DNA of 64,000 nucleotides from Lachnospiraceae bacterium. GTDB taxonomy: Bacteria; Bacillota; Clostridia; Lachnospirales; Lachnospiraceae. The stretch lies in the NCBI GenBank assembly GCA_009774625.1, contig VSOB01000005.1:10061-74060 (forward strand), written 5' to 3'. The notes beneath the pieces are model-generated. The model did no database searches and had not been told where the DNA came from. It saw only the letters and a program-made list of their open reading frames with translations. Within the stretch, counting starts at the first letter, position 1; each line of letters opens with the position of its first letter. Position numbers and translations under genes: made by a program. Positions 12,617 to 41,949 of this stretch are shown here, one piece after another.

Positions 12617-12622
12617 AAACAT

Positions 12623-13037: not shown

Positions 13038-13086
13038 AGTAGAGGGAAAAATTAAAAATGTATAAAGAAATGGTTCAGGAGAAGAG

Positions 13087-14178: not shown

Positions 14179-14256
14179 TCCCTTTGAAACAGATAACAGG
14201 CAGTGAAAAGTTCTTCATTTTTACTGCCCTTTTTTCTATGCTATGGGAGGAAGGCT

Positions 14257-15690: not shown

Positions 15691-15714
15691 AGAACAAAAA
15701 AAGAAGGTGTGGAT

Positions 15715-16776: not shown

Positions 16777-16799
16777 AGTTTTGAGGGGAGGAGTATCAG

Positions 16800-17618: not shown

Positions 17619-17621
17619 TGT

Positions 17622-18656
17622 ATGCAGCCAATTAAAGTATTGATTGTAGAAGATTCCATTGTATTCCGGGAACTGCTGGTGCAGAATCTGAGCAGGGACC
17701 CGGCCATTCAGGTGGTAGGGACTGCCAGGGATCCTTTTGAAGCAAGGGATGCCATACTGGCAAAGAAACCGGATGTTATGACATTGGACGTGGAGCTGCC
17801 GAGGATGAGCGGGATAGAGTTTTTGAGGAAACTGATGCCCCAGTACCCGCTTCCGGTGGTGGTGATCAGCTCGCTGAGTGATAAGGTATTTGATGCACTG
17901 AACGCAGGCGCCGTGGACTTTGTAGCCAAACCGGCGGTATCCAGCAGGGCACAGTTAGAGGATTTTATCCGGAATGAACTGTTGGTGAAGATCAAGATCG
18001 CTTCCACAGCCAAGATCAGCAATATCAAACGAAAGGTGATGGAGCAGGAGCAGCACGGACAGCGGCTCTCCACAAAGCGCAACAATCTGCTTGTGGCAAT
18101 CGGTGCGTCCACAGGAGGCACCGAAGCGATTTTTGCGGTTGCCAAAGAGTATGGAACGGACATTCCGGGCATCGTGGTGGTGCAGCATATGCCGCCCGGC
18201 TTTACTTCCATGTATGCCAAAAGGCTGAATGACCAGTGCCGGATACAGGTCAAGGAGGCACAGACCGGGGATCGGGTCCTGCCGGGCCATATGCTGATTG
18301 CACCGGGAGGGGATCAGCATATGCGGCTTGTAAAGGTAAACGGCGGTTATCAGGTGGAGTGTAAAAGAGGGCCCAGGGTCAATGGACACTGTCCGTCGGT
18401 GGATGTGCTGTTTGAATCAGTGGCCAAAAACGCCGGGGCCGATGCCGTGGGAATCATTCTCACCGGTATGGGGGGCGACGGGGCCAAAGGGCTGCTGGCG
18501 ATGAGAAAAGCCGGCGCCAGAACCATCGGTCAGGATGAATCCACCTGCGTGGTCTATGGTATGCCAAAGGTAGCCTATGATCTGGGCGCGGTGGAGTATC
18601 AGGAAAAATTGACACAGATCGCAGGAAGAACCTATGCGTTGTTGAATAAAATGTAA
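17622..18656 (+). CDS. cheB: protein-glutamate methylesterase/glutaminase
   Basis: REC (VLIVEDS, LDVELP) plus the methylesterase catalytic domain (IGASTGGTEA, VVQHMP, LTGMGGDG). Confidence 0.92.
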   Translation: MQPIKVLIVEDSIVFRELLVQNLSRDPAIQVVGTARDPFEARDAILAKKPDVMTLDVELPRMSGIEFLRKLMPQYPLPVVVISSLSDKVFDALNAGAVDFVAKPAVSSRAQLEDFIRNELLVKIKIASTAKISNIKRKVMEQEQHGQRLSTKRNNLLVAIGASTGGTEAIFAVAKEYGTDIPGIVVVQHMPPGFTSMYAKRLNDQCRIQVKEAQTGDRVLPGHMLIAPGGDQHMRLVKVNGGYQVECKRGPRVNGHCPSVDVLFESVAKNAGADAVGIILTGMGGDGAKGLLAMRKAGARTIGQDESTCVVYGMPKVAYDLGAVEYQEKLTQIAGRTYALLNKM

Positions 18657-18668
18657 AGGAGAGAGGAC

Positions 18669-19061
18669 ATGAAGATTTTATTGGCAGAAGATGATTTTGC
18701 GACAAGGAAGTTTATGGTGAATTTCCTGTCAAAGTATGGCGAATGTGATGCAACTGTGGACGGTATGGAAGCGGTGGACGCATTTATGATGGCTTTGGAG
18801 GATGAGGAACCGTATGATCTGGTATGTCTTGATATTATGATGCCGGTTATGGACGGGTATCAGGCGCTTATGGGGATCCGGAATCTGGAAAAGGACCGGA
18901 ACATTCCTGAGGATCAGGCGGTGAAAGTGATTATGACAACGGCGCTGAATGAGGAAAGAAATGTAAAAATGGCGTTTGAACTGGGCTGTACGATCTATTC
19001 CGGTAAGCCGATTGATCAGGGGCGGTTTGAGCAGGCGCTGAAAAAACTGGGCCTGATCTGA
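18669..19061 (+). CDS. cheY: single-domain CheY-like response regulator
   Basis: 130-aa REC only (LLAEDD, CLDIMMPVMDG, MTTA, GKP). Its position between cheB and cheA fits CheY. Confidence 0.8.
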   Translation: MKILLAEDDFATRKFMVNFLSKYGECDATVDGMEAVDAFMMALEDEEPYDLVCLDIMMPVMDGYQALMGIRNLEKDRNIPEDQAVKVIMTTALNEERNVKMAFELGCTIYSGKPIDQGRFEQALKKLGLI

Positions 19062-19103
19062 GACAAAAGAACATAGATTGGAATATGCAGGAAAGGAGAA
19101 TGT

Positions 19104-21272
19104 ATGGCTGAGGAATTTAGTACGGAAGGCATGCTTGACATGTATCTGTTTGAAAACGAACAGCTTCTGGAGCAGCTTCAGGAGATGGTTCTGGAACAGA
19201 AGGATGCGGAATGCTTTGACGAGGACAGCATCAATGAAATATTCAGAACCATGCATACCATCAAAGGCTCATCCGGTATCATGATGTTCGACAATATAAC
19301 GGCGATATCGCATAAGCTGGAGGATGTATTTTATTATTTGAGAGAATCTCATCCGGAAAATGTACCCCATGTGGATCTGGTGGCGCATGTACTGCGGGTG
19401 GAGGATTTTATCTCCAATGAGATGGAAAAGATCCGGGGAGGCGATTCGCCGGACGGAGATCCGGGAGAGATCATAGCGGATCTGGACCGTTTTCTGGAGC
19501 AGCTTAAAAGTGGCGGAGAAGAAAAGGGTGCGGAGCCGCCGCCGGAGAATGTCTATGTGGCGCCGAAACAGTTTTATATAGCGCCGGTTGCCACCAGTGC
19601 CAGCCGCTTTTACAAAATATATATTCACTTTTTCCCGGAAACAGAGATGGCAAATGTGCATGCTTACAAAGCGGTGTACGCTCTGAAGGAAGTGGCGGAA
19701 GATCTTTTGTATTCCCCGGAGGATATTATCTCGGATGCTGAAAGCGCTGCCGCTATTCTGAAGGATGGTTTCCGGATTCTGTTGCAGGCCCAGTGCAGTG
19801 AAGAAGAAGTGCGCAAGATTATCGGCGTGGGCTATGATATTGAAAAGGTGGATGTTTTTGAGTGCAGGGCAGAGGAGTTTCTGCAGGGCTTTGATTTCGG
19901 AGAAAACGATGATCTGTTGCAGATTGATCTGGACTCCAGTGTGGAGGACATCGAGGCGCGGATCGAGGATGCTTCTGCAGAAGAAAGTGTTCAGCCGGCA
20001 AAATCAAAACCCGCGAAGCCGGCCATAGCGCCTGGTGATTTTGTCATAAAATCCAGGGAACCCGGCAAACAGAAAAAGCTGGCTAAGGATAAGCCGAAAG
20101 GAGAGAAAGCCTCCTTTATCGGCGTGAATGTGAGCAAAATGGATCAGTTGATGGAGCTGATCGGAGAGCTGGTAATTTCGGAGTCGGTTGTACTACAGAA
20201 TCCGGATCTGAAGGTGCCGGGCTTAAACCTTGACAATTTTAACAAAGCAGCGGCACAGCTTTCCAAGATTTCCACAGATTTGCAGAATGTGATTATGTCC
20301 ATGCGCATGGTGCCGTTAACCAATACGTTCCAGAAGATGAACCGAATCGTATTTGACGTTTCCCGGAAGCTGGGCAAAGACATCGAATTTGTAATGGTGG
20401 GAGAACAGACCGAGGTAGATAAGAATATCATTGAGCATATTTCGGATCCGCTGATGCATCTGGTGAGAAATGCGGTGGACCATGGAATAGAAACCAATGA
20501 AGAGCGTATAGAAAGCGGCAAGCCGGATAAGGGTAAAGTGACGCTTTCTGCCAGGACAGAGGCCGGTAAGGTATGGATCAGTGTAGAGGACAACGGTCAG
20601 GGACTTGACAGAAATAAGATATTGGAAAAAGCCAGAAAGCAGGGACTGCTTGAGGAAGGCAAGCCGGACAGTTCTTACTCCGATAAGGAAGTGTATCAGT
20701 TTATTACTTATCCGGGCTTTTCCACCAATGAACAGATTACCGAGTATTCGGGCCGGGGCGTGGGTATGGATGTGGTGGTGCAGAACATACAGGCAATCGG
20801 CGGTACACTGGATATAGAAAGTACGCCGGGCTTTGGCAGCATTATGAGCCTGAAGATTCCGCTGACCCTTGCCATTATCGACGGCATTGTGATGGAAACC
20901 GGAAACTCCTCCTTTGTGATGGAAACAGGTATGATCAAGGAGTTTGTCCGTGTAAAGGAAGATATGATGATTCATGAACCTGACGGAGAGGAATACATCA
21001 TGATACGCGGCGAATGTTACCCGGTATTGCGTCTGGGCAGATGGTACGGCCTGACACAGTATCAGGAGTCCGTAGAGGACGGGGTTATGCTGATTCTGGA
21101 GGTAGAGGATAAGAGGGTATGTCTGTTGGTGGATAAACTGATTGGAGAACAGGAGATCGTAGTCAAACCGATTCCCTCTTATATCAAAAAGGTCAAAGGT
21201 CTGTCCGGCTGTACGCAGCTTGGCGACGGCAGTATCGCGCTGATTTTGGATGCAGGCGGGCTGATCGAATAA
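19104..21272 (+). CDS. cheA: chemotaxis histidine kinase CheA
   Basis: P1 Hpt (FRTMHTIKGSSG), a dimerisation segment, HATPase (HLVRNAVDHGIE, DNGQGLD, GRGVGMDVV) and a C-terminal CheW-like P5 domain. Confidence 0.93.
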   Translation: MAEEFSTEGMLDMYLFENEQLLEQLQEMVLEQKDAECFDEDSINEIFRTMHTIKGSSGIMMFDNITAISHKLEDVFYYLRESHPENVPHVDLVAHVLRVEDFISNEMEKIRGGDSPDGDPGEIIADLDRFLEQLKSGGEEKGAEPPPENVYVAPKQFYIAPVATSASRFYKIYIHFFPETEMANVHAYKAVYALKEVAEDLLYSPEDIISDAESAAAILKDGFRILLQAQCSEEEVRKIIGVGYDIEKVDVFECRAEEFLQGFDFGENDDLLQIDLDSSVEDIEARIEDASAEESVQPAKSKPAKPAIAPGDFVIKSREPGKQKKLAKDKPKGEKASFIGVNVSKMDQLMELIGELVISESVVLQNPDLKVPGLNLDNFNKAAAQLSKISTDLQNVIMSMRMVPLTNTFQKMNRIVFDVSRKLGKDIEFVMVGEQTEVDKNIIEHISDPLMHLVRNAVDHGIETNEERIESGKPDKGKVTLSARTEAGKVWISVEDNGQGLDRNKILEKARKQGLLEEGKPDSSYSDKEVYQFITYPGFSTNEQITEYSGRGVGMDVVVQNIQAIGGTLDIESTPGFGSIMSLKIPLTLAIIDGIVMETGNSSFVMETGMIKEFVRVKEDMMIHEPDGEEYIMIRGECYPVLRLGRWYGLTQYQESVEDGVMLILEVEDKRVCLLVDKLIGEQEIVVKPIPSYIKKVKGLSGCTQLGDGSIALILDAGGLIE

Positions 21273-21297
21273 AATAGCAGAAAGGAACAGGAAACAT

Positions 21298-21834
21298 ATG
21301 AGTGAAATGAGCGAATTGAAGAGACAGGAAGAGGCCGCTTCAAATGAGCATGATACGCAAAAGGGTAAGTATATGACCTTTAAATCCGGAAACGAGTATT
21401 TCGGGCTGGAGATTCAGTATGTCAATGAGATCATTCAGTTTCAGACGATTACGGCCATACCGGAGACAGAGGATTATATCAAGGGCCTGATCAACCTGAG
21501 AGGAAAGGTGATCCCGGTAGTGGATGTACGCCTGCGTTTCAAACAGGAACCCTTTGAGTACAATGACAGGACCTGTATTATTGTAATCAATGTGAAATCC
21601 ATGATGGTGGGGCTGATTGTGGAGAAAATTGCCGAAGTGGTGGAAATCAAGGAAGAGAACATACTGCCTCCGCCCAACATTGGCCGCGCCGATAAATCCC
21701 ATCACAAATATGTGTATGGAATCGGTAAGGTTGGCAATGCGGTGAAACTTTTGCTGGATCCGGATAAGTTGCTGAATGATGATGACCTGTCGGTTATGGA
21801 ACAGGCCAATGATATGATATTAGAAGAAGAATGA
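21298..21834 (+). CDS. cheW: chemotaxis coupling protein CheW
   Basis: A single CheW-like domain ([35 protein letters not shown]) with a ~25-aa N-terminal extension. Confidence 0.88.
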
Positions 21835-21847
21835 GGGGGAGAAACAC

Positions 21848-23206
21848 ATGAAAAACTTGAAAATGAAAACAAAATTAATTTTGGGCTTTCTGGTGCCGAT
21901 TGCGATCACCGTGATCAATATCCTGATCAGTAATCTGACCACCAAATGGGCCGCTTCTATTAAAGATCATACAGAACGGGATATCTTTACCAACGTTGCC
22001 GCAGTTGCAACAATTGTTTTTGCCGCCATTTCTGTATTGGTTACCATATTGATCGCACTGGCACTGATTAAAACCATTGAAAAGTCGGTGAAGCAGCTTT
22101 CTGATGCCGCAAAAGAAATCGCTATGGGCCGCGTGGATATTAACCTGGTTAAGTACAATAACGACGAATTTGGCGAACTGGTGGATGAATACAACAATGT
22201 GATTGAAAATATCAAGTATCAGGCCGAGATCGCAGAGGCGGTATCCAACGGGAACCTGACAGTACAGGTAAATCCCAAATCTTCGGATGACCTGCTGGGC
22301 AATTCGTTAAAGAAACTGGTGGAAGATAACTTAAATGCGCTGACCAATATCAGCGACGCAGGATCTCAGGTAACGGTCAGCTCCTCTCAGGTGGCAAGTG
22401 CAAGCCAGGCGCTGGCACAGGGTTCCACACAGCAGGCAAGTGCCATTGAAGAGATTACAGCATCCATTGACGAGATTGCAGAAAAGACAAAACAGAACGC
22501 AGAAGAAGCCAACCAGGCCGCCGGACTGGTGGCACAGGCTATTTCGGATGTACAGCAGGGGAATGGCCAGATGCAGAATATGATGGTGGCAATGCAGAGC
22601 ATCAACAAATCATCAGAAAGCATTTCCAAGATTATCAAAGTGATTGATGATATTGCATTCCAGACCAACATTCTGGCGCTGAATGCAGCAGTGGAAGCTG
22701 CAAGGGCAGGGGAAGCCGGAAAAGGGTTTGCGGTAGTGGCAGAGGAAGTCAGAAGTCTGGCAGCAAAGAGCGCTTCTGCAGCAGCAGAGACGGCGGAGCT
22801 GATTGAGGATTCCATTGAGAAGGTCAACGCAGGCACCAAGATTGCGGATGAAACCGTAAAATCTATGGAAGCGATTACAAAGAGAGTACAGGACAGCGAA
22901 ATGATTATCAATGGCATCGCAGAATCTTCCAATTATCAGGCGACTGCGGTGGCACAGATTGAGCAGGCGATCACGCAGGTATCCCAGGTAGTACAGACCA
23001 ATTCCGCTACCAGCCAGCAGTGTGCGGCAGCCAGTGAAGAACTGTCCAATCAGGCGTCCAGAATGCGTGAAATGCTTGCCATCTATAATCTGGGAGCAGG
23101 CAATTCCTATTCTTCCTCTCTTAAGAGTGATTCCTATTCCTACTCTTCAGCATCCAATGTAAATGAACAGGTGATATCTCTGGGAGATGATTTTGGAAAA
23201 TACTGA
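21848..23206 (+). CDS. methyl-accepting chemotaxis protein with a minimal extracytoplasmic loop
   Basis: Two TM helices separated by only ~25 aa, HAMP, and the conserved signalling hairpin ([37 protein letters not shown]). A Ser-rich tail ends in DDFGKY. Confidence 0.92.
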
Positions 23207-23220
23207 AGCAGATAAATCAT

Positions 23221-23250
23221 GACACAGGGACGAAAGCCCTGTGTCTTTTA
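23221..23250 (+). terminator. intrinsic terminator after the MCP gene
   Basis: GACACAGGG (23221-23229) and CCCTGTGTC (23237-23245) form a perfect 9-bp stem with a 7-nt loop, followed by TTTTA. Confidence 0.7.
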
Positions 23251-23323
23251 TGTGTATATGCAGGGAAGTTTTGGAAATTTTTCCTGTATGATAGCAAGAA
23301 AGGAAAAAGGAGAGTGATTGCAA

Positions 23324-23677
23324 ATGGCTTTATTTGAGGAATTAAAAGCTCTGGGTGTGGATGTAGACGGAGGGCTGAAACGGATCAATAACAATGAGAA
23401 ACTTTATACAAGACTGCTGGGTTCTTTTGTCAAGTCGATTGAATCTCAGTATGTGCAGCCGGATTTTGATGCTGCCGAGTGCGAAGGGGCAATTGAAAAG
23501 GCCCATGCTATCAAGGGAACGGCAGGTAATCTGTCTATTACGCCGGTATATGAAGCCTACACCGAAGTGGTGAATCTGCTCCGGAAAGGACAGATCGAAG
23601 AGGCCAGACCGATTCTGACCAGGATACTTCCCATCCAGAATGAGATTGCCGCCTGCATCAAAAGTCATATGGCATAA
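23324..23677 (+). CDS. stand-alone Hpt phosphotransfer protein
   Basis: 117 aa, helical, with the Hpt signature EKAHAIKGTAGNLSI. ATG 23324 follows AAAGGAGAG. Confidence 0.75.
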   Translation: MALFEELKALGVDVDGGLKRINNNEKLYTRLLGSFVKSIESQYVQPDFDAAECEGAIEKAHAIKGTAGNLSITPVYEAYTEVVNLLRKGQIEEARPILTRILPIQNEIAACIKSHMA

Positions 23678-23714
23678 AGTTACTGCATAATGCTGACACA
23701 TTGGAGCGAAAAGA

Positions 23715-26255
23715 ATGAATAAAAGGATAAACAATTTTTTCAGGAGCAGTGTTGTGGCTGTTGTGGCTGTGTGTGTGGTAGTATTTATTTTTCTGACTTC
23801 TTTTATGACCCATCAGACCAAGCGGACGGTTATGGAAATCAGCGACAAATACATGGCTGAGATGAGCAGACAGATTAAACAGAAGTTTGAGGCGATTATT
23901 ATGCTGCGGCTGAGTCAGGTGGAAGGCATGATAATGCGTACTCCTCCGGAAGAGGCAGAATATGGCGCCGAAATGCTGGAAGAGTTGATGATGAGTGCCG
24001 AGATCCGGAACTTTTCCTGGCTGGGACTGTATGACAGGGACGGCAAGATCGAAAAGATTTATGGTGAGGAGATTGAGATCGTCAATGACGGAGATATGCT
24101 GAGTTCCCTTGAAGAGGATGGTATGCTGGTAGAAGAGGGAAAAACTTCTGAAGGAGAAAAACTGCTACTTCTGGGAGCAAAGGCGGCTTATCCTATGGGG
24201 AACGGCAACACCAGTGCGGCGCTGGTTGCCGGACTTCCGATGGATTATCTGGGTATGGTACTGTTTCTGAATGAAAATGATGCGATGGTGTATTCGCATA
24301 TCATAGACGGCGAAGGGAATTTTGTAGTCCGGAGTGCGGATGCGTTCCGGGAGAACTATTTTACCCGGATGCGGGAACAGTTTGAGGTGTTCGAAGGCAA
24401 AGAAGCAGAGGAATATGTCAGTGAGTTGCAGGAGGCTATATCGAACCGCAGTGTGTATTCTACAATGGTTTCCATGGAGGGAGAGCAGTTGCATCTGTAT
24501 TGTCTGCCACTTTCGGAAAACACTTCCTGGTATCTGATCTCTGCCCTGCCCAACGGATATATGGAAGAGTCTGTTTCCAGGCTGGACAGCATGCGTACCC
24601 TGGTGATGGTATGTTCTGTGGGAATGATCCTGCTGGTGATGTCGGTGATTTTTGTGATCTATTACCGGCTGTCCAAACAGCAGATCAGAGATCTGGACCA
24701 GGCTATGGGAGAAGCAGTGCATGCCAATATGGCTAAGAGTGAATTTCTCTCCAGTATGAGTCATGATATCCGGTCTCCGATGAATGCTATTATCGGTATG
24801 ACGGAGATTGCCCAGAGAAATATTGACGATAAAGCCAGGGTGAAGGACTGTCTGCACAAAGTGTCGCTGTCCAGCAAGCATCTGCTGGGGCTGATCAACG
24901 ATGTGCTGGATATGTCCAAGATTGAAAGCGGAAAGATGACCCTGAATGAGGTGCCCATGTCTCTCAGGGAAGTGATGGATGATATTGTCAACATCATACT
25001 GCCTCAGGTCAAAGCCAGGGCACAGCAGTTTGATATTTATATTCAGAAAATCATGACGGAGAATGTATACTGCGATACTGTGCGTCTGAATCAGGTACTG
25101 ATCAATCTGCTTACCAATGCGGTCAAGTTTACGCCGGAAGGCGGCCGGGTGGATGTGCATGTATTCCAGGAAGCCTCTCCTTTAGGGGAGGAATATATCC
25201 GAAACCATTTTGAGGTGGAGGATACGGGTATCGGTATGTCGGAGGACTTTCAGAAAAAGATATGGGATACCTTTTCCAGAGAAGAAACTGATGAGGTGCG
25301 GCATATTGTGGGAGCCGGCCTGGGTACTTCCATTACGAAAAAAATCATTGAACTGATGGGCGGCAACATTGAACTGAAAAGTAAACTCGGAAAGGGCAGC
25401 ACCTTCCATGTGACGCTTGACCTGAGAAAAGCGGATGCCAGCGAAATGGAGATGAGACTGCCCGAATGGAATATTCTGGTGGTGGATGATAATGAATGGC
25501 TGTGCCTGAGTGCGGTTTCTAATCTGGAGGAACTGGGAGTTCATGCGGAGTGGACGCTGGATGGCCGGGATGCCGTCAGGATAATTGAAGAGCGCCATAA
25601 CAAAGGAGAGGACTACCGGTTTGTGCTGGTAGACTGGAAGATGCCCAATATGGACGGCATTGAAACCATCCGGGAAATCCGTAAACGGGTGGGCAGAAGT
25701 GTTTCTATTTTCCTGATTTCGGCCTATGACTGGAATGAACTGGGAGAGGATGTGGCGCCGGAGATCGAAGGCTTTATTTCCAAACCGCTCTTTAAATCCA
25801 CATTGTACGAGTGGCTGAAGCAGTATACGGAAGGATATGATGCACAGTCGGAGGAAAAAGAGGAGGAGGTGGACTTCACAGGGAAGCACATTCTTCTGGC
25901 AGAAGATATGGACATTAACTGGGAAGTGGCTTATGAGATCCTTTCCATTACCGGAATGGTGCTGGATCGGGCCGAAAACGGACAGATCTGCGTGGATATG
26001 TTCCAGAAGTCCGAGGTGGGCTACTATGATGCCATTTTGATGGATCTGCGTATGCCTGTAATGAACGGATACGACGCCACAAAGGCGATCCGCGCACTGG
26101 GGCGTCCGGATAATAATCTGCCGATCATAGCGATGACCGCAGATGCCTTTTCGGACGATGCAGAGCATTGTCTGCAGTGTGGCATGAATGCCCACATTCC
26201 CAAGCCGCTGGACATCGGTGAATGCATGAGGGTACTGCAGAAGTTCCTGGGCTGA
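23715..26255 (+). CDS. hybrid sensor histidine kinase (large extracytoplasmic sensor, HisKA, HATPase, two REC domains)
   Basis: TM1, a ~260-aa extracytoplasmic Cache-like region and TM2. H-box SHDIRSPMNAI, HATPase (LTNAVKFTP, DTGIGM, GAGLGT). Then two receivers (ILVVDD...VDWKMPNMDG and ILLAEDM...MDLRMPVMNG...KP). Confidence 0.9.
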   Translation: MNKRINNFFRSSVVAVVAVCVVVFIFLTSFMTHQTKRTVMEISDKYMAEMSRQIKQKFEAIIMLRLSQVEGMIMRTPPEEAEYGAEMLEELMMSAEIRNFSWLGLYDRDGKIEKIYGEEIEIVNDGDMLSSLEEDGMLVEEGKTSEGEKLLLLGAKAAYPMGNGNTSAALVAGLPMDYLGMVLFLNENDAMVYSHIIDGEGNFVVRSADAFRENYFTRMREQFEVFEGKEAEEYVSELQEAISNRSVYSTMVSMEGEQLHLYCLPLSENTSWYLISALPNGYMEESVSRLDSMRTLVMVCSVGMILLVMSVIFVIYYRLSKQQIRDLDQAMGEAVHANMAKSEFLSSMSHDIRSPMNAIIGMTEIAQRNIDDKARVKDCLHKVSLSSKHLLGLINDVLDMSKIESGKMTLNEVPMSLREVMDDIVNIILPQVKARAQQFDIYIQKIMTENVYCDTVRLNQVLINLLTNAVKFTPEGGRVDVHVFQEASPLGEEYIRNHFEVEDTGIGMSEDFQKKIWDTFSREETDEVRHIVGAGLGTSITKKIIELMGGNIELKSKLGKGSTFHVTLDLRKADASEMEMRLPEWNILVVDDNEWLCLSAVSNLEELGVHAEWTLDGRDAVRIIEERHNKGEDYRFVLVDWKMPNMDGIETIREIRKRVGRSVSIFLISAYDWNELGEDVAPEIEGFISKPLFKSTLYEWLKQYTEGYDAQSEEKEEEVDFTGKHILLAEDMDINWEVAYEILSITGMVLDRAENGQICVDMFQKSEVGYYDAILMDLRMPVMNGYDATKAIRALGRPDNNLPIIAMTADAFSDDAEHCLQCGMNAHIPKPLDIGECMRVLQKFLG

Positions 26256-26276
26256 TCCGGGAGATTCTGGGAAGTC

Positions 26277-26305
26277 TTGCTTTTATGACAGACCGGTGGT
26301 ATACT
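26277..26305 (+). promoter_or_regulatory. sigma-A-like promoter hexamers upstream of the stator-like pair
   Basis: TTGCTT (26277-26282), exactly 17 nt, TATACT (26300-26305). This architecture matches the element at 28417-28445. Confidence 0.35.
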
Positions 26306-26327
26306 GAAACAGAATCAAGGGAAGAAC

Positions 26328-26360
26328 GAAAAAGAGTGGAATGCGTTCCACTCTTTTTTC
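26328..26360 (+). terminator. strong hairpin with U-tract (terminator of the hybrid-kinase operon and/or leader attenuator of the stator pair)
   Basis: GAAAAAGAGTGGAA / TGCG loop / TTCCACTCTTTTTTC, about 13 bp. The ATG 26341 in the ORF track lies inside the loop region, so it is unlikely to be a real start. Confidence 0.65.
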
Positions 26361-26376
26361 TAAAGAGGAGGTTTTT

Positions 26377-27507
26377 ATGAGAAACAAATGGTATATTCTG
26401 TTGATTGTAGTTTATATTCTGACCTTTGGCTTTATCCTGGATATCAATGGGGTGTTTGCCGGGGAAGTGGTGCTGACAGCCAATCTGGTGATCAATGTGT
26501 CCTTTCTGGCCATTATCGGTATTCTGTTTCTGTTTTCCATCATCAGCTTTATCCGGCTGAATTCCCTGACAGGTGCGATGGCGAGGGCGGCAGGTGAGAT
26601 GGAGCGGCAGTTTGAGCCGGACCGGAAAAATCTCTGGCCGGATTACCGGAAGAAACCGGAGCCTTTTTCCAATACTACCTTAAACCGCAGGTTTGCCATG
26701 TATCAGAAGCATGTGAGTGTACATACGGATAAAAAAGGGAATGTGACAGACGCCTGTCCGGTGGAAACCTACATAAATGAAGCGCTGGTGAATCAGGTGG
26801 GCAGGACTTGGTTCAACACGAATATTTCCGGCGCTATGACAGGACTGGGCATCCTGGGAACTTTTCTGGGCCTGTCGCTGGGGCTGAGTTCCTTTTCGGG
26901 CAATGATATTTTTACGATATCCGAAAATATCGCACCGCTGCTGGATGGTATGAAAGTGGCTTTCCATACATCCGTGTATGGTATTTTCTTTTCTCTGATC
27001 TTTTCTTTTGTATACCGGAGTCTGATGTCCGATGCCTATGATAAGCTGGACCGGTTTTTGGATGCGTTTCATGAGTATGTGCAGCCCAAAGTTCACACCA
27101 GACAGGAGGCACTTGGCAGTATGCTGTTGTATCAGGCAAATATGGCGGGTTCTCTTCGGAAGATACAGGAGCTTTTGCAGGGCAACGCACAGGCGCAGCT
27201 TGAAGGAGTGGAGCAGATCGTCCGTCAGTTTATGACATGTATGTCGGAAACTATGGGGACAGAGCTGGGAAAGCTGGGCAGGAGCCTGGAGCAGTCCTGT
27301 GAAGCACAGGGAAACTGCGGGGAAGAGCTGCGGCAGTTAACAGAAAGGATGCAGAAGATGCTGGAGTCCTGTAATACACTGAATGAGGTACTGGCGCATA
27401 CAGTGGACCGACAGAAAAAAGTGGAGGACACGCTCTCTGATACATGCGAAAGAATCGGCAATGAGCTGTATGCACTGGGACAGATGAGGGATATGTATGA
27501 GAAATAA
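26377..27507 (+). CDS. MotA/TolQ/ExbB-family ion-channel protein with a C-terminal coiled-coil tail
   Basis: 376 aa from ATG 26377 (RBS AAAGAGGAGG). Two N-terminal TM helices and a ~100-aa loop, then family-signature helices ISGAMTGLGILGTFLGLSLGL and MKVAFHTSVYGIFFSLIFSFVY, then ~140 aa of heptad-like sequence. Confidence 0.75.
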   Translation: MRNKWYILLIVVYILTFGFILDINGVFAGEVVLTANLVINVSFLAIIGILFLFSIISFIRLNSLTGAMARAAGEMERQFEPDRKNLWPDYRKKPEPFSNTTLNRRFAMYQKHVSVHTDKKGNVTDACPVETYINEALVNQVGRTWFNTNISGAMTGLGILGTFLGLSLGLSSFSGNDIFTISENIAPLLDGMKVAFHTSVYGIFFSLIFSFVYRSLMSDAYDKLDRFLDAFHEYVQPKVHTRQEALGSMLLYQANMAGSLRKIQELLQGNAQAQLEGVEQIVRQFMTCMSETMGTELGKLGRSLEQSCEAQGNCGEELRQLTERMQKMLESCNTLNEVLAHTVDRQKKVEDTLSDTCERIGNELYALGQMRDMYEK

Positions 27508-28393
27508 AAGAAAAGAGATATTTGAAGAGCCAGGTTACTGGCAGTCTTATTCGGATATGATGGCGGCGCTTTTGCTGATCTTTATTCTGCTGATTGCCAT
27601 TACCCTTTTTGTCTACAAACAGAAACGGACAGATCTGGAGGCGGCCCAGTTACAGTTGGATACGACACGGCAGGAACTGGAGGCATCAGAGCTGGAGCTT
27701 TTGAATTCCATGAAGGAACTGGAGGAGGCCTATGCAAAGGCCACTATGACAGAGGATGAGCTGGCAGCGGCCTACCAGCGGATTGATGAGGCACAGGCGG
27801 AGCTGGATTCCACCAGAAGTGAGCTGCGGGATATCGTGGGCATCCGGACGGATATCATCGGAGAGCTGCAGAAGCGGTTCGATAATTCATCCATGAAGGT
27901 GGATGCCCAGACAGGGACCATTACCTTTTCTTCGGATGTGCTGTTCCGTTATAACAGTGCCAGACTGACGCCGGAGAGCAAGGCCACATTACAGGAAATC
28001 ATCCCCATGTATCTGGGAGTTCTGCTGCAGGATACATTCCGTCCTTATATTTCGGAAATCATTATCGAAGGCCATACGGATACGGACGGAGATTATCAGA
28101 GCAATATGGTGCTGTCCACCAACCGGGCGGATTCGGTGGCCCAGTTCTGTCTGGATGCGGAAAACGGTCTGACAGAGGAACAGATCGGGCAGCTCCAGGA
28201 GATGCTGACCGTGAACGGACGCTCCTACAGTGTACCCATCTATGAAGCAGGTACCGGTGAGGTGAATATGGCGGCTTCCCGCCGGGTGGAAATCAAGTTC
28301 CGCCTGAAGGAAGAGGAGATGATCGAAAAGATTACGGAGATTCTGGAACAGGACGGAGAGGAGGCGCAGTCCGGACAGGAAGCGTCGGAATAA
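27497..28393 (+). CDS. MotB/OmpA-family protein (TM with conserved Asp, coiled coil, peptidoglycan-binding OmpA-like domain)
   Basis: Overlaps the upstream gene by 11 nt. YSDMMAALLLIFILL places an Asp (GAT 27554-27556) at the TM entrance, as in MotB. A ~80-aa coiled coil follows. OmpA-like motifs IIIEGHTDTDGDYQSNMVLSTNRADSVAQF and SRRVEIKF. Confidence 0.8.
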   Translation: MRNKRKEIFEEPGYWQSYSDMMAALLLIFILLIAITLFVYKQKRTDLEAAQLQLDTTRQELEASELELLNSMKELEEAYAKATMTEDELAAAYQRIDEAQAELDSTRSELRDIVGIRTDIIGELQKRFDNSSMKVDAQTGTITFSSDVLFRYNSARLTPESKATLQEIIPMYLGVLLQDTFRPYISEIIIEGHTDTDGDYQSNMVLSTNRADSVAQFCLDAENGLTEEQIGQLQEMLTVNGRSYSVPIYEAGTGEVNMAASRRVEIKFRLKEEEMIEKITEILEQDGEEAQSGQEASE

Positions 28394-28416
28394 CGTCATA
28401 ATTTTTCCAAAAATGC

Positions 28417-28445
28417 TTGCAAATACTGGATAAAAGTGCTATACT
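28417..28445 (+). promoter_or_regulatory. candidate sigma-A promoter of the rimP-nusA-infB operon
   Basis: TTGCAA (28417-28422), 17 nt, TATACT (28440-28445). Confidence 0.5.
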
Positions 28446-28479
28446 GTATAAGATTTAATAGTATAAGACAGAAAGTGTG

Positions 28480-28510
28480 AAGAGTGGAACGAGTTCCACT
28501 CTTTGTTTTT
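28480..28510 (+). terminator. hairpin with U-tract in the rimP leader (terminator of the stator pair and/or leader attenuator)
   Basis: AAGAGTGGAA / CGAG loop / TTCCACTCTT followed by TGTTTTTGG. The stem core is identical to the hairpin at 26328-26360. Confidence 0.6.
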
Positions 28511-28565
28511 GGTACATAGGTGAATATATGGCATAAATTCAGATGGAAGATAAAGGGGTGATTGT

Positions 28566-29057: not shown

Positions 29058-30344
29058 ATGAACAAAGAGTTAATGGAAGCGCTTGATATTTTGGAGAGAG
29101 AAAAAGAAATCAGCAAAGACACTTTGTTTGAGGCAATTGAAAATTCTCTGATTACGGCATGCAAAAATCATTTCGGCAAATCAGATAATATCAAAGTTGA
29201 AATTGACAGGGAAACTTGTGATTTTGTCTGTTATGCGGAAAAAGAAGTGGTGGAGGAAGTGGAGGATGACTGCCTGCAGATTTCTCTGGAGGATGCCAGG
29301 GAAGTCTCGCATAACGCTCAGTTGGGCGATATGATTCATATCGAGATCAAATCCAAAGAGTTTGGCCGTATCGCAACCCAGAATGCCAAAAATGTAATTC
29401 TGCAGAAAATCCGGGAAGAAGAAAAAAGTGTGATTTACAATCAGTACTGCAAAAAGGAAAAGGATATCGTAACAGGTGTGGTACAGCGGTATCTGGGACG
29501 GAACATCAGCATCAATCTGGGAAAGGCGGATGCGATTCTGACAGAGAGTGAGCAGATCAAAGGAGAGGTATTCAAACCTACGGAGAGGATTAAGGTCTAT
29601 ATTCTTGAAGTGCGGAATATGTCCAAAGAACCCAAGATTCTGGTGAGCCGGACCCACCCGGAGATGGTAAAGCGTCTGTTTGAAGCGGAAGTAACCGAGA
29701 TCAAGGACGGAACGGTGGAGATCAAAAGCATTGCCAGAGAGGCGGGCAGCCGGACGAAGATTGCGGTGTGGTCCAGAAATCCCAATGTGGATGCGGTGGG
29801 TGCCTGCGTGGGGATGAACGGCGCCAGAGTCAATGCCATCGTGGAGGAGCTGAGAGGGGAAAAGATTGATATTATCAACTGGGATGAAAACCCCGGCAAT
29901 CTGATTCAAAATGCCCTTTCTCCTGCGAAAATCGTTGCGGTATTTGCGGATCCGGATGAAAAGACAGCCAAAGTGGTGGTGCCTGATTATCAGCTTTCCC
30001 TTGCCATCGGAAAGGAAGGGCAGAATGCAAGACTGGCGGCGCGGCTGACCGGTTATAAAATAGACATCAAGAGCGAGACACAGGCAAAGGATACACCCGG
30101 ATTCCGGTACGAGGACTATATGGATGAGTACGAGGATGACTATGAGGAGGAAGAGGGCCTGGATTTTGAAGATTCTTATGAAGAGACAGAAGAGGGCCTT
30201 GTAGAGCAGGGACAGGAGCCGGAAGGAGATATAAGTATAAAAGAAGAAGGCCTTGTTTTTGGAGAAGAACAGGAAGAGACATATGATCTGCCTGAGGAAG
30301 GAGAAGCGGAATGGGACGGTTCGGGAGAAGTCTATGAAGAGTAA
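29058..30344 (+). CDS. nusA: transcription termination/antitermination factor NusA
   Basis: NusA N-terminal domain, S1 and two KH domains (RTKIAVWS, PNVDAVGACVGMNGARV, LSLAIGKEGQNARLAARLTGYKIDI). The C-terminal tail is strongly acidic. Confidence 0.95.
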   Translation: MNKELMEALDILEREKEISKDTLFEAIENSLITACKNHFGKSDNIKVEIDRETCDFVCYAEKEVVEEVEDDCLQISLEDAREVSHNAQLGDMIHIEIKSKEFGRIATQNAKNVILQKIREEEKSVIYNQYCKKEKDIVTGVVQRYLGRNISINLGKADAILTESEQIKGEVFKPTERIKVYILEVRNMSKEPKILVSRTHPEMVKRLFEAEVTEIKDGTVEIKSIAREAGSRTKIAVWSRNPNVDAVGACVGMNGARVNAIVEELRGEKIDIINWDENPGNLIQNALSPAKIVAVFADPDEKTAKVVVPDYQLSLAIGKEGQNARLAARLTGYKIDIKSETQAKDTPGFRYEDYMDEYEDDYEEEEGLDFEDSYEETEEGLVEQGQEPEGDISIKEEGLVFGEEQEETYDLPEEGEAEWDGSGEVYEE

Positions 30345-30606
30345 GAAGGTTCCGCTCAGACAATGTATCGGCTGTGGGGAGATGAAGGCCAAGAGTGAGA
30401 TGATGCGCGTTTTGAAGGATGCGCAGGGCGAGATCACATTGGATGTAACAGGCAGGAAAAACGGAAGAGGCGCTTATCTTTGTGTTTCCGAAGCATGCCT
30501 GCAAAGCGCAAGAAAGAACAAAGGACTGGAGCGTTCTTTCAGGATGAGCATTCCGGAGCAAGTTTATGAGAATCTGGAAAAGGAGTTTCAGAGGAACAGA
30601 GAATGA
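30334..30606 (+). CDS. ylxR: YlxR family RNA-binding protein (DUF448)
   Basis: PLRQCIGCGE...GRGAYLC motif. ATG 30334 overlaps the nusA stop. The track start at 30253 lies inside nusA. Confidence 0.85.
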   Translation: MKSKKVPLRQCIGCGEMKAKSEMMRVLKDAQGEITLDVTGRKNGRGAYLCVSEACLQSARKNKGLERSFRMSIPEQVYENLEKEFQRNRE

Positions 30607-41539: not shown

Positions 41540-41582
41540 CCGGGCCGGGCCTGTCCCGGTAAGAAAGGAAAAGGGAAATGAT

Positions 41583-41804
41583 ATGGATGAAACAATCAGA
41601 GCAGCAGAGGCAGACATCGAAGCGGTAATGAAGATTCTGGACGGGTTTGCAGCAGGCGGGGAGAGCCGGATGAAGCTGGAGGCCGTCCAGGGAGTGGAGG
41701 AAGGCAGTGTATCAAAGGCATATCATCATGGCAGATGCGACATTGGCAGTCCCTGGGCGCGGGGAGAGTGCTTTGATGCGGCTGAGAAGGACTGTGACAG
41801 ATAA
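41583..41804 (+). CDS. small hypothetical protein, 73 aa, acidic with three Cys
   Basis: ATG preceded by AAGGAAAAGGGA. Codon usage looks coding. Sequence ...KAYHHGRCDIGSPWARGECFDAAEKDCDR. I recognise no family. Confidence 0.4.
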   Translation: MDETIRAAEADIEAVMKILDGFAAGGESRMKLEAVQGVEEGSVSKAYHHGRCDIGSPWARGECFDAAEKDCDR

Positions 41805-41932: not shown

Positions 41933-41949
41933 AAGGAAATGATGCATAT

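What the first reader, a model, noticed from the sequence alone, without database searches (positions are those of the whole stretch)
26377..28393. An orphan MotA/MotB-like stator unit with coiled-coil extensions and no rotor, TonB/Tol or Zorya partners nearby
The two genes overlap by 11 nt and so appear translationally coupled. The first encodes a MotA/ExbB-family channel protein. It has MotA-like topology (TM1-2, a ~100-aa loop, TM3-4 with the GILGTFLG and AFHTSVYGIF helices) and an unusual ~140-aa coiled-coil tail. The second encodes a MotB-type partner with the proton-relay Asp at the TM entrance (YSDMMAALLL). It also has an ~80-aa coiled coil and an OmpA-like peptidoglycan-binding domain. 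The pair sits on its own between hairpins at the end of a chemosensory and c-di-GMP island. Nothing in the 64 kb encodes flagellar, TonB/TolA/Pal, gliding or Zorya effector (ZorC-G-like) components. A tailed MotA-like subunit is reminiscent of ZorA, but the context differs. It could be an ion-driven motor coupled to an unidentified envelope process.
Basis: partly seen in the sequence, partly recalled or inferred. Interest (0 to 1): 0.7.

Follow-up and report, generated by a model that had tools for sequence, protein, structure and literature searches.

The report
Orphan Zorya-type motor pair, Lachnospiraceae
These two overlapping genes encode a wall-anchored, ion-driven rotary motor of the type used by the Zorya anti-phage system, but it has a short tail, a long stalk and no effector genes, and it is conserved like a housekeeping gene across many gut Lachnospiraceae, so its job is unknown.

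Summary
Two translationally coupled genes (26377-27507 and 27497-28393, 11-nt overlap) encode a MotA/ExbB-superfamily channel with a helical tail. Its partner has a transmembrane Asp, a coiled coil and an OmpA-like domain.

By profile, sequence and predicted fold, both proteins belong to the ZorA/ZorB (Zorya) branch. They do not belong to MotAB, PomAB, ExbBD or TolQR.

They fail several defining Zorya features:
- The tail is about 160 aa, against the long tails reported for all Zorya types.
- ZorB carries a 70-110-aa stalk whose length changes only in steps of 7 residues (71 of 71 species).
- No effector gene follows the pair in any of 77 species.
- The contexts are housekeeping, not defence islands.
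- There are no plasmid or phage copies.
- dN/dS (0.06-0.11) equals that of infB and rimP.
- The pair is present in all 18 conspecific contigs read.

Longer-tailed, unstalked relatives at about 30% identity do sit in a defence island.

In most lineages the pair has a TTTAAG-N5-TTTAAG operator upstream. In this window that operator is replaced by a copy of the rimP-nusA promoter and leader hairpin.

The ion-path residues match the Na+ triad of PomA.

Verdict: a new, effector-less variant of a Zorya-type 5:2 motor that behaves as a core gene. Its role, envelope surveillance or stand-alone defence, is unresolved.

The parts
26277..26305 (+). Promoter of the pair: -35 TTGCTT (26277-26282), 17-nt spacer, extended -10 TGgTATACT (26297-26305)
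   Evidence: Read. It aligns with the rimP promoter (cTTGCaa-17-TGcTATACT), which the consensus scan reports at 28417-28445. Function is inferred.
26334..26361 (+). Leader hairpin GAGTGGAATGCGTTCCACTC plus a T-run, between the promoter and the RBS. It looks like an attenuator or terminator and is a copy of the rimP leader hairpin.
   Evidence: Only two copies in the window, 0 expected by chance. Alignment with the rimP leader. The same hairpin lies upstream of A in L018, L020, L023 and L024 and upstream of rimP in all six related species loci examined, L018-L022 and L024. No Rfam family matches.
26362..26371 (+). Ribosome-binding site AAAGAGGAGG for the ZorA-like gene
   Evidence: It is conserved upstream of the orthologs.
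26377..27507 (+). ZorA-like gene (376 aa). Helices 6-23 and 34-60, cytoplasmic domain 61-143 with a beta-hairpin near 117-123, TM 144-171 (GxxGTxxG, T162), outside loop 173-190, TM 191-215 (A195-x-x-T198-S199), helical tail about 217-376 ending in a conserved NELYxxxQMRDxYEK tip.
26806..27024 (+). Ion-conducting core of A (aa 144-216), the most conserved part (71-89% identity across 49 orthologs). T162 is nt 26860-26862; T198 and S199 are nt 26968-26973.
   Evidence: Compared with PomA T158/T185/T186 and with ZorA T147/S184.
27025..27504 (+). Cytoplasmic helical tail of A (aa about 217-376)
   Evidence: AlphaFold2 helices 178-235, 242-268 and 274-375. Length varies among species in steps of +7 or +11 residues.
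27497..27507 (+). 11-nt overlap ATGAGAAATAA between A's stop and B's start, implying translational coupling
   Evidence: The same overlap is seen in orthologous loci (A ends at 11131 and B starts at 11121 in L007-L010 and L019-L022).
27497..28393 (+). ZorB-like gene (298 aa). Short cytoplasmic N-terminus, TM about 15-40 with Asp20 (nt 27554-27556), extracellular coiled-coil stalk about 41-127, OmpA-like peptidoglycan-binding domain about 130-270 (TDxxG...NxxLSxxRA), conserved C-terminal helix and an acidic end.
27617..27877 (+). Coiled-coil stalk of B (aa about 41-127). The window has the shortest length class.
   Evidence: The distance from SDMM to IVGIRTD is 94, 101, 108, 115, 122, 129 or 136 residues in 71 species. 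All values differ by multiples of 7. Heptad repeats LEASxAD are inserted in orthologs.
28417..28511 (+). rimP-nusA promoter (28417-28445) and leader hairpin plus T-run (28477-28511). The hairpin is also the first terminator after the ZorB-like gene.

Best explanation
The pair encodes a Zorya-type (ZorAB-like) ion-driven rotary motor. By analogy with the solved ZorA5B2 complexes it should have 5:2 stoichiometry. In a large clade of Lachnospiraceae it has become a vertically inherited, effector-less core module.

Proposed mechanism:
- A dimer of the ZorB-like protein is held to the thick Gram-positive wall by its OmpA-like domains.
- Those domains sit at the end of a rigid coiled-coil stalk whose register is preserved.
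- Ions flow past Asp20 of B and T162/T198/S199 of A. This hydroxyl triad is the one that binds Na+ in PomA, so the ion may be Na+ rather than H+.
- The ion flow turns the ZorA-like pentamer and its cytoplasmic helical tail around the anchored B dimer. The tail contains a 102-residue helix, which would be about 15 nm long.

Because the pair behaves like a housekeeping gene, I think it most likely works as a cell-envelope surveillance or transduction device. On this view, wall state gates motor activity and the output is tail rotation or ion flux, serving normal envelope physiology. It is not a flagellar stator and not a classical defence-island Zorya system.

Shown here: gene structure, family placement, predicted folds, conserved residues, distribution, contexts and selection. 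Inferred: stoichiometry, rotation, coupling ion, regulation and biological role.
For: Family placement:
- A carries PF28082 ZorA-like_t1 and matches PADLOC ZorA2 at E 6e-20.
- A's only significant PDB sequence matches are ZorA chains: 8VVN at 2.5e-12 and 8QYD at 9e-10.
- The Foldseek best hits for A are ZorA at E 1e-7 and TM 0.62-0.70. TolQ scores 3e-2, PomA 8e-2 and MotA 0.16.
- B matches PADLOC ZorB1 at 227 bits, E 5e-68. Its best PDB matches by sequence and by fold are ZorB.

Motor residues:
- D20 aligns to ZorB D26 and is invariant.
- T162 and S199 correspond to ZorA T147 and S184.
- GxxGTxxG and A-x-x-T-S copy PomA G154-G161/T158 and A182/T185/T186.
- The OmpA motif TDxxG...NxxLSxxRA is intact.

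Stalk and tail:
- The stalk is heptad-quantised in 71 of 71 species.
- The tail varies in steps of 7 or 11 residues.

Core-gene behaviour:
- 574 GTDB species genomes encode a relative. The best 80 are full-length, at least 44% identical, and essentially all from Lachnospiraceae.
- B follows A in 72 of 75 loci by automatic ORF calling. Two of the three loci where A was not called were checked by hand and held an intact A hidden by a long antisense ORF.
- No third gene is conserved. There are about six lineage-specific contexts: rimP-nusA, argG/argJ/argC, copA-csoR/clpB, nrdD, speE-like/mntR and a PGA_cap operon.
- Conservation equals that of the neighbours. Against L022, A is 71% identical, B 84%, RimP 73%, IF2 81% and NusA 88%.
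- dN/dS is 0.08-0.11 for A and 0.06-0.08 for B, against 0.07 for infB.
- All 18 contigs carrying the identical RimP have the order HK-A-B-rimP.
- No plasmid or phage copies were found.

Regulation:
- A conserved operator travels with the pair. TTTAAG-N5-TTTAAG with at most 1 mismatch occurs upstream of A in 13 of 74 loci, against 0 of 311 other intergenic upstream regions.
- An exact TTAAGA occurs in 55 of 76 against 86 of 1083.
- This is the consensus bound by the envelope-stress regulator CiaR in streptococci.
Against: - There is no experimental data on any member.
- No output partner was identified, so 'surveillance or transduction' is a role without a known target.
- Homology to a defence motor is itself an argument for a defence role. 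So is the defence-island location of the closest long-tailed relative.
- Scores are below NCBIfam's curated ZorA/ZorB cut-offs: 59.9 against 100, and 86.7 against 400.
- The models are monomers, so the 5:2 assembly and the pentameric tail bundle are assumed from ZorAB structures.
- dS is saturated (above 1), so the dN/dS values are only qualitative.
- The operator is absent in the window itself, and its regulator is unknown.
- The Na+ inference rests on three residues only.
- The fraction of Lachnospiraceae that carry the pair was not measured.
Confidence: 0.5

Rival explanations
1. The same machine is a self-sufficient two-gene anti-phage system, a minimal Zorya. Phage damage to the wall lets the ZorB-like domain engage or disengage. 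The opened channel then dissipates the ion gradient (abortive infection), or the short tail acts directly, with no dedicated effector.
For: - Both proteins are ZorA/ZorB-branch.
- The nearest long-tailed relative (33% identity) lies beside a type I restriction-modification system and is followed by GajB-like UvrD helicases.
- ZorAB was originally proposed to act as a depolarising channel (PADLOC paper).
- The pair sits in different places in different genera, so it has moved at least several times.
Against: - In characterised Zorya systems ZorAB alone gives no defence, and every tail truncation abolished it.
- The pair is never in a defence island in the 77 species loci.
- It has no plasmid or phage copies.
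- It is fixed in all 18 conspecific contigs read.
- It evolves as slowly as infB and nusA. Defence genes are usually patchy and fast-evolving (general knowledge).
Confidence: 0.3
2. The pair is the sensor half of a split Zorya-like system. Its effectors (nuclease or helicase) are encoded elsewhere in the genome and are recruited by the conserved tail tip.
For: - The tail tip is conserved (NELYTFxQMRDLYEK). In E. coli Zorya the tail tip is needed to recruit ZorD.
- No partner is adjacent in any locus.
Against: - Known Zorya types keep their effectors in the operon.
- The tail is a fraction of the length reported as essential.
- Core-gene behaviour argues against it, as in the previous rival.
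- It cannot be tested without whole genomes.
Confidence: 0.1
3. It is an ordinary or alternative flagellar stator (MotAB or MotPS-like) for a flagellum encoded elsewhere, placed next to a chemotaxis operon.
For: - A che operon lies immediately upstream in the window lineage.
- The general architecture fits: an Asp in the TM helix and an OmpA-like domain.
- Weak NCBIfam matches to MotB, MotS and MotD.
- Flagella are common in Lachnospiraceae (general knowledge).
Against: - A has no sequence match to any MotA or PomA structure. Its fold matches them six orders of magnitude worse than ZorA.
- Its cytoplasmic domain has the ZorA-type beta-hairpin and a long C-terminal tail rather than a FliG-binding domain.
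- MotB-family scores are far below their cut-offs: 38 against 283 and 33 against 264.
- The che linkage is absent in all more distant orthologs.
- No flagellar gene occurs in any of the neighbourhoods.
Confidence: 0.03
4. It is a decaying remnant of a Zorya system that lost its effectors and most of its tail.
For: A short tail and no effectors.
Against: - Intact reading frames in all 80 species loci.
- A fixed length of 376 aa in most of the 120 closest clusters.
- dN/dS of 0.06-0.11.
- A conserved overlap, RBS and operator.
Confidence: 0.02

Closest known systems
ZorA/ZorB core of Zorya anti-phage systems (E. coli type I, PDB 8QYD; Shewanella type I, 8VVN; Sulfuricurvum type II, 8VVI)
   Same: - These are the best sequence, profile and fold matches for both proteins.
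- The TM Asp matches (D20 = D26), as do the Thr/Ser ion filter (T162 = T147, S199 = S184) and the cytoplasmic domain with a beta-hairpin.
- A has a C-terminal helical tail.
- B has an OmpA-like peptidoglycan-binding domain, and no MotB-type plug was demonstrated.
- The genes are adjacent in the order A then B.
   Different: - The tail is about 160 aa, against about 280-500 aa.
- B has a heptad-quantised stalk of 70-110 aa, whereas EcZorB's domain is fused without a linker.
- There are no ZorC/D, ZorE or ZorF/G genes.
- The host is a monoderm, where Zorya is reported as under-represented.
- The context is core-genome, with slow evolution and fixation within the species.
- An extra polar residue (T198) completes a PomA-like Na+ triad.
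- Scores fall below NCBIfam's ZorA/ZorB cut-offs.
Flagellar stators MotAB, PomAB and MotPS
   Same: - The same 5:2 motor superfamily.
- The B subunit has a TM Asp and an OmpA-like wall anchor.
- The GxxGTxxG and A-x-x-T-(T/S) motifs are like those of Na+-driven PomA.
- The genes are coupled in the order A then B.
   Different: - There is no detectable MotA-type cytoplasmic torque domain.
- The tail and the stalk are absent from flagellar stators.
- No flagellar genes lie nearby.
- Similarity is far weaker than to ZorAB.
ExbBD-TonB and TolQR-TolA-Pal
   Same: - The same superfamily.
- They use ion flow to do work on the envelope through an elongated protein.
- TolQ is the next-best structural match after ZorA (E about 3e-2).
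   Different: - ExbD and TolR lack an OmpA-like domain.
- They require TonB or TolA and outer-membrane partners, which a monoderm lacks.
- No such genes are present in the window.
Long-tailed ZorA-like/ZorB-like operons of uncultured bacteria (for example locus L016)
   Same: - These are the closest relatives outside the short-tail clade, at about 30-33% identity.
- They share the same Pfam family and the same invariant motor residues.
   Different: - The tail is 450-900 aa.
- ZorB is 248 aa and has no stalk.
- The pair is followed by a 417-aa protein and two GajB-like UvrD helicases.
- It lies beside a type I restriction-modification system.

Membership tests
Zorya (ZorAB-based anti-phage system) | The A subunit is of ZorA type rather than MotA, ExbB or TolQ type | tested here: met
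   PF28082 ZorA-like_t1. PADLOC ZorA2 at E 6e-20. The only PDB sequence matches are ZorA. Foldseek scores ZorA at 1e-7 against TolQ at 3e-2 and MotA at 0.16.
Zorya (ZorAB-based anti-phage system) | The proteins reach curated family thresholds for ZorA and ZorB | tested here: not met
   NCBIfam ZorA_2 scores 59.9 bits against a cut-off of 100. ZorB1 scores 86.7 against 400.
Zorya (ZorAB-based anti-phage system) | The B subunit is of ZorB type, with the essential TM aspartate and a peptidoglycan-binding domain | tested here: met
   PADLOC ZorB1 at 227 bits, E 5e-68, full length. D20 aligns with D26 and is invariant. The best fold matches are ZorB chains. N, L and R of the ZorB peptidoglycan-binding residues are kept, while Y151 is replaced by Ser.
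Zorya (ZorAB-based anti-phage system) | A long cytoplasmic ZorA tail, reported in all Zorya types; truncations abolish defence | tested here: not met
   The tail is about 160 aa, against residues 223-729 in EcZorA. Relatives beyond 36% identity are 450-911 aa long.
Zorya (ZorAB-based anti-phage system) | The ZorB peptidoglycan-binding domain is fused to the TM helix without a linker | tested here: not met
   A helical stalk of about 85 aa here and up to about 130 aa in orthologs, varying only by heptads. See for EcZorB.
Zorya (ZorAB-based anti-phage system) | Adjacent effector genes (ZorC/ZorD, ZorE or ZorF/ZorG) | tested here: not met
   None in the window. None in the 77 orthologous species loci.
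Zorya (ZorAB-based anti-phage system) | Defence-island or mobile context and patchy distribution | tested here: not met
   Housekeeping neighbours. No plasmid or phage hits. Present in 18 of 18 conspecific contigs. Evolves at a housekeeping rate.
Zorya (ZorAB-based anti-phage system) | Protects against phage | not testable with these tools
   Needs phage challenge of deletion strains or of strains expressing the pair.
Zorya (ZorAB-based anti-phage system) | Ca2+ site linking the cytoplasmic domains (EcZorA E86/E89) | not tested
   The region was not aligned by phmmer and no structural superposition was available.
5:2 ion-driven rotary motors (MotAB/ExbBD/TolQR/ZorAB superfamily) | A-subunit channel domain plus a single-pass B subunit with a conserved Asp, encoded by adjacent genes | tested here: met
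   PF01618 is above its cut-off. Asp20 is invariant. The 11-nt overlap is confirmed.
5:2 ion-driven rotary motors (MotAB/ExbBD/TolQR/ZorAB superfamily) | A5B2 stoichiometry and rotation | not testable with these tools
   Only monomer models could be made.
Flagellar stator (MotAB, PomAB, MotPS) | MotA-type cytoplasmic domain that engages FliG | tested here: not met
   No MotA or PomA sequence match. Fold E-values are 0.08-0.16. The cytoplasmic domain has the beta-hairpin typical of Zorya proteins.
Flagellar stator (MotAB, PomAB, MotPS) | MotB plug helix after the TM segment | tested here: inconclusive
   PF13677 scores 22.0 bits, under its cut-off of 24, and covers only the TM part. The coiled coil starts directly after the TM helix.
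Flagellar stator (MotAB, PomAB, MotPS) | Part of a flagellar gene set | tested here: inconclusive
   No flagellar gene occurs in the 64 kb or in any orthologous neighbourhood.
ExbBD-TonB / TolQR-TolA | An ExbD/TolR-type B subunit and a TonB or TolA partner | tested here: not met
   B has an OmpA-like domain. No TonB, TolA or Pal gene is in the window.

The most novel reading that the evidence does not exclude
A Zorya-type rotary motor has been domesticated in monoderm gut Lachnospiraceae as a core, effector-less, possibly Na+-driven, wall-anchored machine that works outside phage defence. One candidate role is sensing or maintaining the gap between membrane and peptidoglycan, under a CiaR-like envelope two-component regulon. 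In that case the defence systems and this module would be two uses of one envelope-surveillance motor.
Probability: 0.4. Interest if true: 0.8.

Novelty: new variant of a known kind. Interest (0 to 1): 0.62.

Why it matters
Zorya is the only known immune system thought to detect phage at the envelope with a rotary motor. It is described as needing a very long tail and dedicated effectors, and as rare in single-membrane bacteria.

Here a branch of the same motor family has a short tail, a rigid length-quantised stalk and no effectors. It is kept under housekeeping-level selection in at least 80, and probably hundreds, of abundant gut commensal species.

If it is not a defence system, it reveals a new physiological use of 5:2 motors in Gram-positive envelopes and hints at what Zorya evolved from. 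If it is one, it is the simplest Zorya-like system known, and a two-gene model for how wall state gates the motor.

The stalk-length series, 94 to 136 residues in steps of 7, is a ready-made natural experiment on how far the anchor must reach.

Tried and rejected
- A third conserved component. The 119-aa protein upstream of the hybrid kinase is an Hpt domain (HAIKGTAGNL), not the small LysM membrane protein found upstream in another lineage. Clustering 1520 neighbouring ORFs found no gene shared across contexts.
- A functional link to the chemosensory island. The link holds only in the closest relatives (at least 80% identity). Hpt, hybrid kinase, A and B stay together down to 71% identity (L022), and beyond that the link is gone.
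- The regulon of the TTTAAG-N5-TTTAAG operator. The 80 loci examined were mostly AT-rich chance matches from unrelated environments, and none encoded A or B. One SPFH-protein promoter and weak sites near a Peptidase_C39_2 gene are too few to use.
- A known RNA element in the leader. Nothing passed an Rfam threshold.
- Plasmid or phage carriage. None found.
- Motility of cultured carriers from their published descriptions. Motility is not stated.
- Literature on orphan ZorAB in Firmicutes. Nothing was found in the held library.
- Apparent absences of A. My simple ORF caller missed A in three loci. The two I checked (L024 and L038) had A intact, hidden by a long antisense ORF. They were not real absences.


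Full report
OBSERVATION

The two ORFs are real. Gene A is best started at the ATG at 26377. That start has a strong AAAGAGGAGG ribosome-binding site and gives 376 aa, the length of nearly all of the 120 closest protein clusters. Gene B starts at 27497, 11 nt before A's stop at 27507.

Pfam finds MotA_ExbB in A (28.1 bits, cut-off 22.9). In B it finds OmpA (47.3 bits) and a sub-threshold MotB_plug match that covers only the membrane segment.

AlphaFold2 of A (99-sequence alignment, pLDDT 78) gives:
- hydrophobic helices at 6-23, 34-60, 144-171 and 191-215;
- a cytoplasmic domain of about 85 aa with a small beta-hairpin;
- a helical C-terminal region ending in a single 102-residue helix, 274-375.

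AlphaFold2 of B gives one long helix from residue 14 to 127 with a single break, then a confident OmpA-like fold (130-270) and a C-terminal helix.

The rest of the window is ordinary Firmicutes core chromosome:
- pyrH, frr, uppS, cdsA, dxr, rseP, ispG, polC;
- a tRNA;
- a 16-kb signalling block: two response regulators with HD-GYP domains, a kinase, cheRBYAW, an MCP, an Hpt protein and a hybrid kinase;
- the pair;
- rimP, nusA, ylxR, an L7Ae-family gene, infB, rbfA, nrnA, truB, ribF;
- later the mraZ-ftsZ cell-wall cluster, spoIIGA, sigE and sigG.

The window contains no flagellar, Ton/Tol, gliding or Zorya-effector gene.

WHAT FAMILY IT IS

Every test places both proteins on the ZorA/ZorB branch of the 5:2-motor superfamily.

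For A:
- It carries the recent Pfam family PF28082 'ZorA-like_t1' in the precomputed annotation.
- It hits 23 PADLOC ZorA models, the best at E 6e-20.
- Its only significant solved-structure relatives by sequence are ZorA chains: 8VVN at 2.5e-12 and 8QYD at 9e-10. No MotA, PomA, ExbB or TolQ appears.
- By predicted fold, ZorA leads at E 1e-7 with TM-score 0.62-0.70. TolQ scores 3e-2, PomA 8e-2, MotA 0.16 and ExbB 0.15.

For B:
- It matches a PADLOC ZorB1 model over its full length (227 bits, E 5e-68).
- Its best solved relatives by sequence and by fold are ZorB chains, ahead of YfiB, MotS, PomB and MotB.

Both proteins remain below NCBIfam's curated ZorA/ZorB thresholds. They are relatives, not orthologs, of the characterised proteins.

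Asp20 of B aligns with the essential ZorB Asp26. T162 and S199 of A align with ZorA T147 and S184, the ion filter described by Hu et al..

HOW IT DIFFERS FROM ZORYA

Hu et al. report long tails in all Zorya types, loss of defence on any tail truncation, and a ZorB wall-binding domain fused to the membrane helix without a linker. They also report that Zorya is under-represented in single-membrane bacteria.

Here the tail is about 160 aa.

B has a helical stalk between the membrane and the wall-binding domain. Across 71 species the distance from the SDMM motif to the IVGIRTD motif takes only the values 94, 101, 108, 115, 122, 129 and 136. Every difference is a multiple of seven. The insertions are LEASxAD heptads. 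That is the signature of a continuous coiled coil whose register must be kept. Over the observed range its length would change by about 6 nm.

The A tail varies in steps of +7 and +11 residues.

The search of 50%-identity representatives shows a compact short clade (368-401 aa) down to 36% identity. Beyond that, relatives are 450-911 aa long.
- One of these, 572 aa at 33% identity, has an unstalked 248-aa ZorB. It lies next to a type I restriction-modification system. It is followed by an unknown 417-aa protein and two GajB-like UvrD helicases.
- Another, 475 aa, has a stalked 327-aa B and is again an orphan pair between a NUDIX gene and a glycosidase gene.

The numbers are small. Still, the two effector-less relatives examined here pair a shorter tail with a stalked B, and the one defence-island relative pairs a long tail with an unstalked B.

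DISTRIBUTION, CONTEXT AND SELECTION

The best 80 are full-length and 44-94% identical. They come from Lachnospiraceae such as Acetatifactor, Hominiventricola, Alitiscatomonas and Kineothrix. Three bins carry Bacteroidales, Odoribacter or Muribaculum labels; the high identity of their pair to Lachnospiraceae orthologs suggests they may be mis-binned contigs, which I did not check.
- I called ORFs in these loci and clustered 1520 proteins. B follows A in 72 of 75 loci, and no other gene is shared across contexts.
- Contexts are lineage-specific and ordinary: hybrid kinase and rimP-nusA; an SNF transporter, a small LysM protein, an ABC-type ATPase and a tyrosine recombinase; argG, argJ and argC; csoR-copA and clpB; nrdD; a DtxR-family repressor and a spermidine-synthase-like gene; and a PGA_cap operon next to LUD-domain and EF-G-like genes.
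- There are no plasmid or phage copies.
- In the window's lineage the pair diverges in step with its neighbours. Against L022, A is 71% identical, B 84%, RimP 73%, NusA 88%, IF2 81% and NrnA 74%.
- dN/dS is 0.08-0.11 for A and 0.06-0.08 for B. It is 0.07 for infB and 0.07-0.11 for rimP. dS is saturated, so these values are qualitative.
- B is notably better conserved than A: 70-76% against 50-58% at the same evolutionary distance.
- All 18 contigs read that carry the identical RimP protein have the order kinase-A-B-rimP.

This is how a core gene behaves, not a typical defence island gene.

REGULATION

In most lineages the region upstream of A has a common architecture, whatever gene lies before it:
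- two or three direct repeats of TTTAAG spaced by 5 nt (11-nt period);
- about 15 nt further on, a weak -35 (TTGTxx);
- after a 17-nt spacer, an extended -10 (TGnTAnnnT).

An exact TTAAGA occurs within 260 nt upstream of A in 55 of 76 species, against 86 of 1083 other genes. TTTAAG-N5-TTTAAG with at most one mismatch occurs in 13 of 74, against 0 of 311 other intergenic upstream regions and 1 of 713 intra-operon ones.

This repeat is the published consensus for CiaR, an OmpR-family envelope-stress regulator of streptococci. I infer control by an OmpR-family regulator of similar specificity. The regulator itself is unidentified.

The window and its nearest relative lack this operator. Instead, the 120 nt before A align with the region before rimP. 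Both have a cTTGC -35, a TGnTATACT -10 and the hairpin GAGTGGAAnnnGTTCCACTC followed by a T-run. That hairpin precedes rimP in all six related species loci examined, L018-L022 and L024. It precedes A in the window, L018, L020, L023 and L024.

The upstream 'flanking hairpin' is therefore inside A's own 5' leader, between the promoter and the RBS. The pair appears to have been inserted into, or to have copied, the rimP-nusA leader.

From memory, leader terminators of the nusA operon are sites of NusA autoregulation in Bacillus subtilis and E. coli. If that holds here, the pair would share that control. This was not tested.

ION

PomA binds Na+ through T158 in a GxxGTxxG zipper and through A182, T185 and T186. 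In H+ stators T158 and T185 are alanine. EcZorA has Gly at the T185 position and was judged H+-driven for lack of the extra polar residue.

The window protein has G158-x-x-G161-T162-x-x-G165 and A195-x-x-T198-S199. Of these, G158, T162, G165, A195, T198 and S199 are invariant in 99 sequences, and G161 is nearly so. All three hydroxyl positions are present. Na+ coupling is therefore a reasonable but unproven inference.

MOST LIKELY MECHANISM

A B dimer is fixed to the thick wall by its OmpA-like domains, through a rigid stalk of defined length. Ion flow past Asp20 turns an A pentamer and its short cytoplasmic tail. The tail's conserved tip (NELYTFxQMRDLYEK) is the likely output surface.

- Identity as a Zorya-type motor: about 0.9.
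- Effector-less and self-contained at the locus: about 0.9.
- Role in normal envelope surveillance or transduction rather than classical defence: about 0.45-0.5.
- Stand-alone two-gene defence: about 0.3.
- Split system with distant effectors: about 0.1.
- Flagellar stator or decaying remnant: a few per cent together.

NOVELTY

Databases already recognise the homology, through Pfam ZorA-like_t1 and the PADLOC hits. NCBI calls the proteins only 'MotA/TolQ/ExbB proton channel family protein' and 'OmpA family protein'.

I found no paper on effector-less ZorAB-like pairs, on their spread in Lachnospiraceae, or on the stalk.

It is a new variant of a known kind of machine.

Noticed in passing
window 26256-26376 and 28394-28565: The regions upstream of the ZorA-like gene and of rimP are homologous: same -35, same extended -10, and the same 8-bp-stem hairpin plus T-run in the 5' leader. 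The hairpin occurs only twice in 64 kb. It is conserved before rimP in all six related species loci examined and is copied before the pair in four other related loci (L018, L020, L023, L024). This suggests a shared attenuator, possibly NusA-dependent.
   Followed up: partly
loci L025-L097, 40-110 nt upstream of the ZorA-like gene (e.g. L037 9908, L040 9909, L050 2727, L055 1608): A conserved operator of TTTAAG-N5-TTTAAG direct repeats (the CiaR-box consensus) lies upstream of a weak -35 and an extended -10. It travels with the pair across unrelated contexts. It is lost in the window and L018, and reduced to one box beside the RBS in L019-L021, L023 and L024.
   Followed up: partly
window 12545-28565: polC and rimP-nusA are usually adjacent in Firmicutes (from memory). 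Here they are separated by a tRNA (12623-12694) and a 16-kb block of signalling genes plus the pair. This looks like an old insertion next to a tRNA, but no integrase is present.
   Followed up: no
L016 7227-16945 (also L017): A long-tailed ZorA-like (572 aa) and an unstalked ZorB-like (248 aa) are followed by an unknown 417-aa protein, two GajB-like UvrD helicases and a protein of more than 620 aa with no PADLOC match. The operon lies beside a type I restriction-modification system. It may be an undescribed Zorya-like subtype.
   Followed up: partly
L099 9001-11416: A second kind of orphan pair (ZorA-like 475 aa, stalked ZorB-like 327 aa) lies between a NUDIX hydrolase gene and a GH3 glycosidase gene. 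Effector-less pairs are therefore not limited to the 376-aa clade.
   Followed up: no
window 23318-26255: A small Hpt protein (HAIKGTAGNL) and a hybrid histidine kinase with two receiver domains stay next to the pair down to 71% identity (L022), even where the che operon is missing. The link could be functional or simply inherited synteny.
   Followed up: partly
L027 17915, L028 17718, L034 16091 (minus strand); L054 7649: Weaker versions of the same repeat lie upstream of a 296-343-aa gene cluster that I take to be the Peptidase_C39_2-type gene seen at the equivalent position in L009 (not checked directly). Another lies upstream of a PGA_cap gene that heads a five-gene operon ending in the pair. 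These are possible further members of the same regulon.
   Followed up: no
L048, L059, L085: Contigs carrying pairs 45-47% identical to the window's, like those of Lachnospiraceae loci, sit in bins labelled Bacteroidales, Odoribacter splanchnicus and Muribaculum. These may be binning errors in the public MAGs; I did not check the rest of the contigs.
   Followed up: no
window, whole length (e.g. 29181-30437 minus, 3652-5352 minus); L024 10854-12125 minus: Every real gene is on the + strand, with strongly positive GC skew throughout. Very long stop-free antisense ORFs (up to 566 aa) shadow real genes. One of them fooled a length-based ORF picker into dropping the ZorA-like gene.
   Followed up: yes
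L006 13417-16700 and L228 6347-8462 (GCA_949068665.1): In one MAG the infB gene is replaced by several short ORFs. This is probably frameshifts or assembly damage rather than biology.
   Followed up: no
window 38962-43104: An agr-like LytTR response regulator and GHKL kinase pair is followed, after a glyoxalase-family gene, by an NlpC/P60 wall hydrolase with SH3 domains, 10-15 kb downstream of the pair. No link to the pair was found.
   Followed up: no
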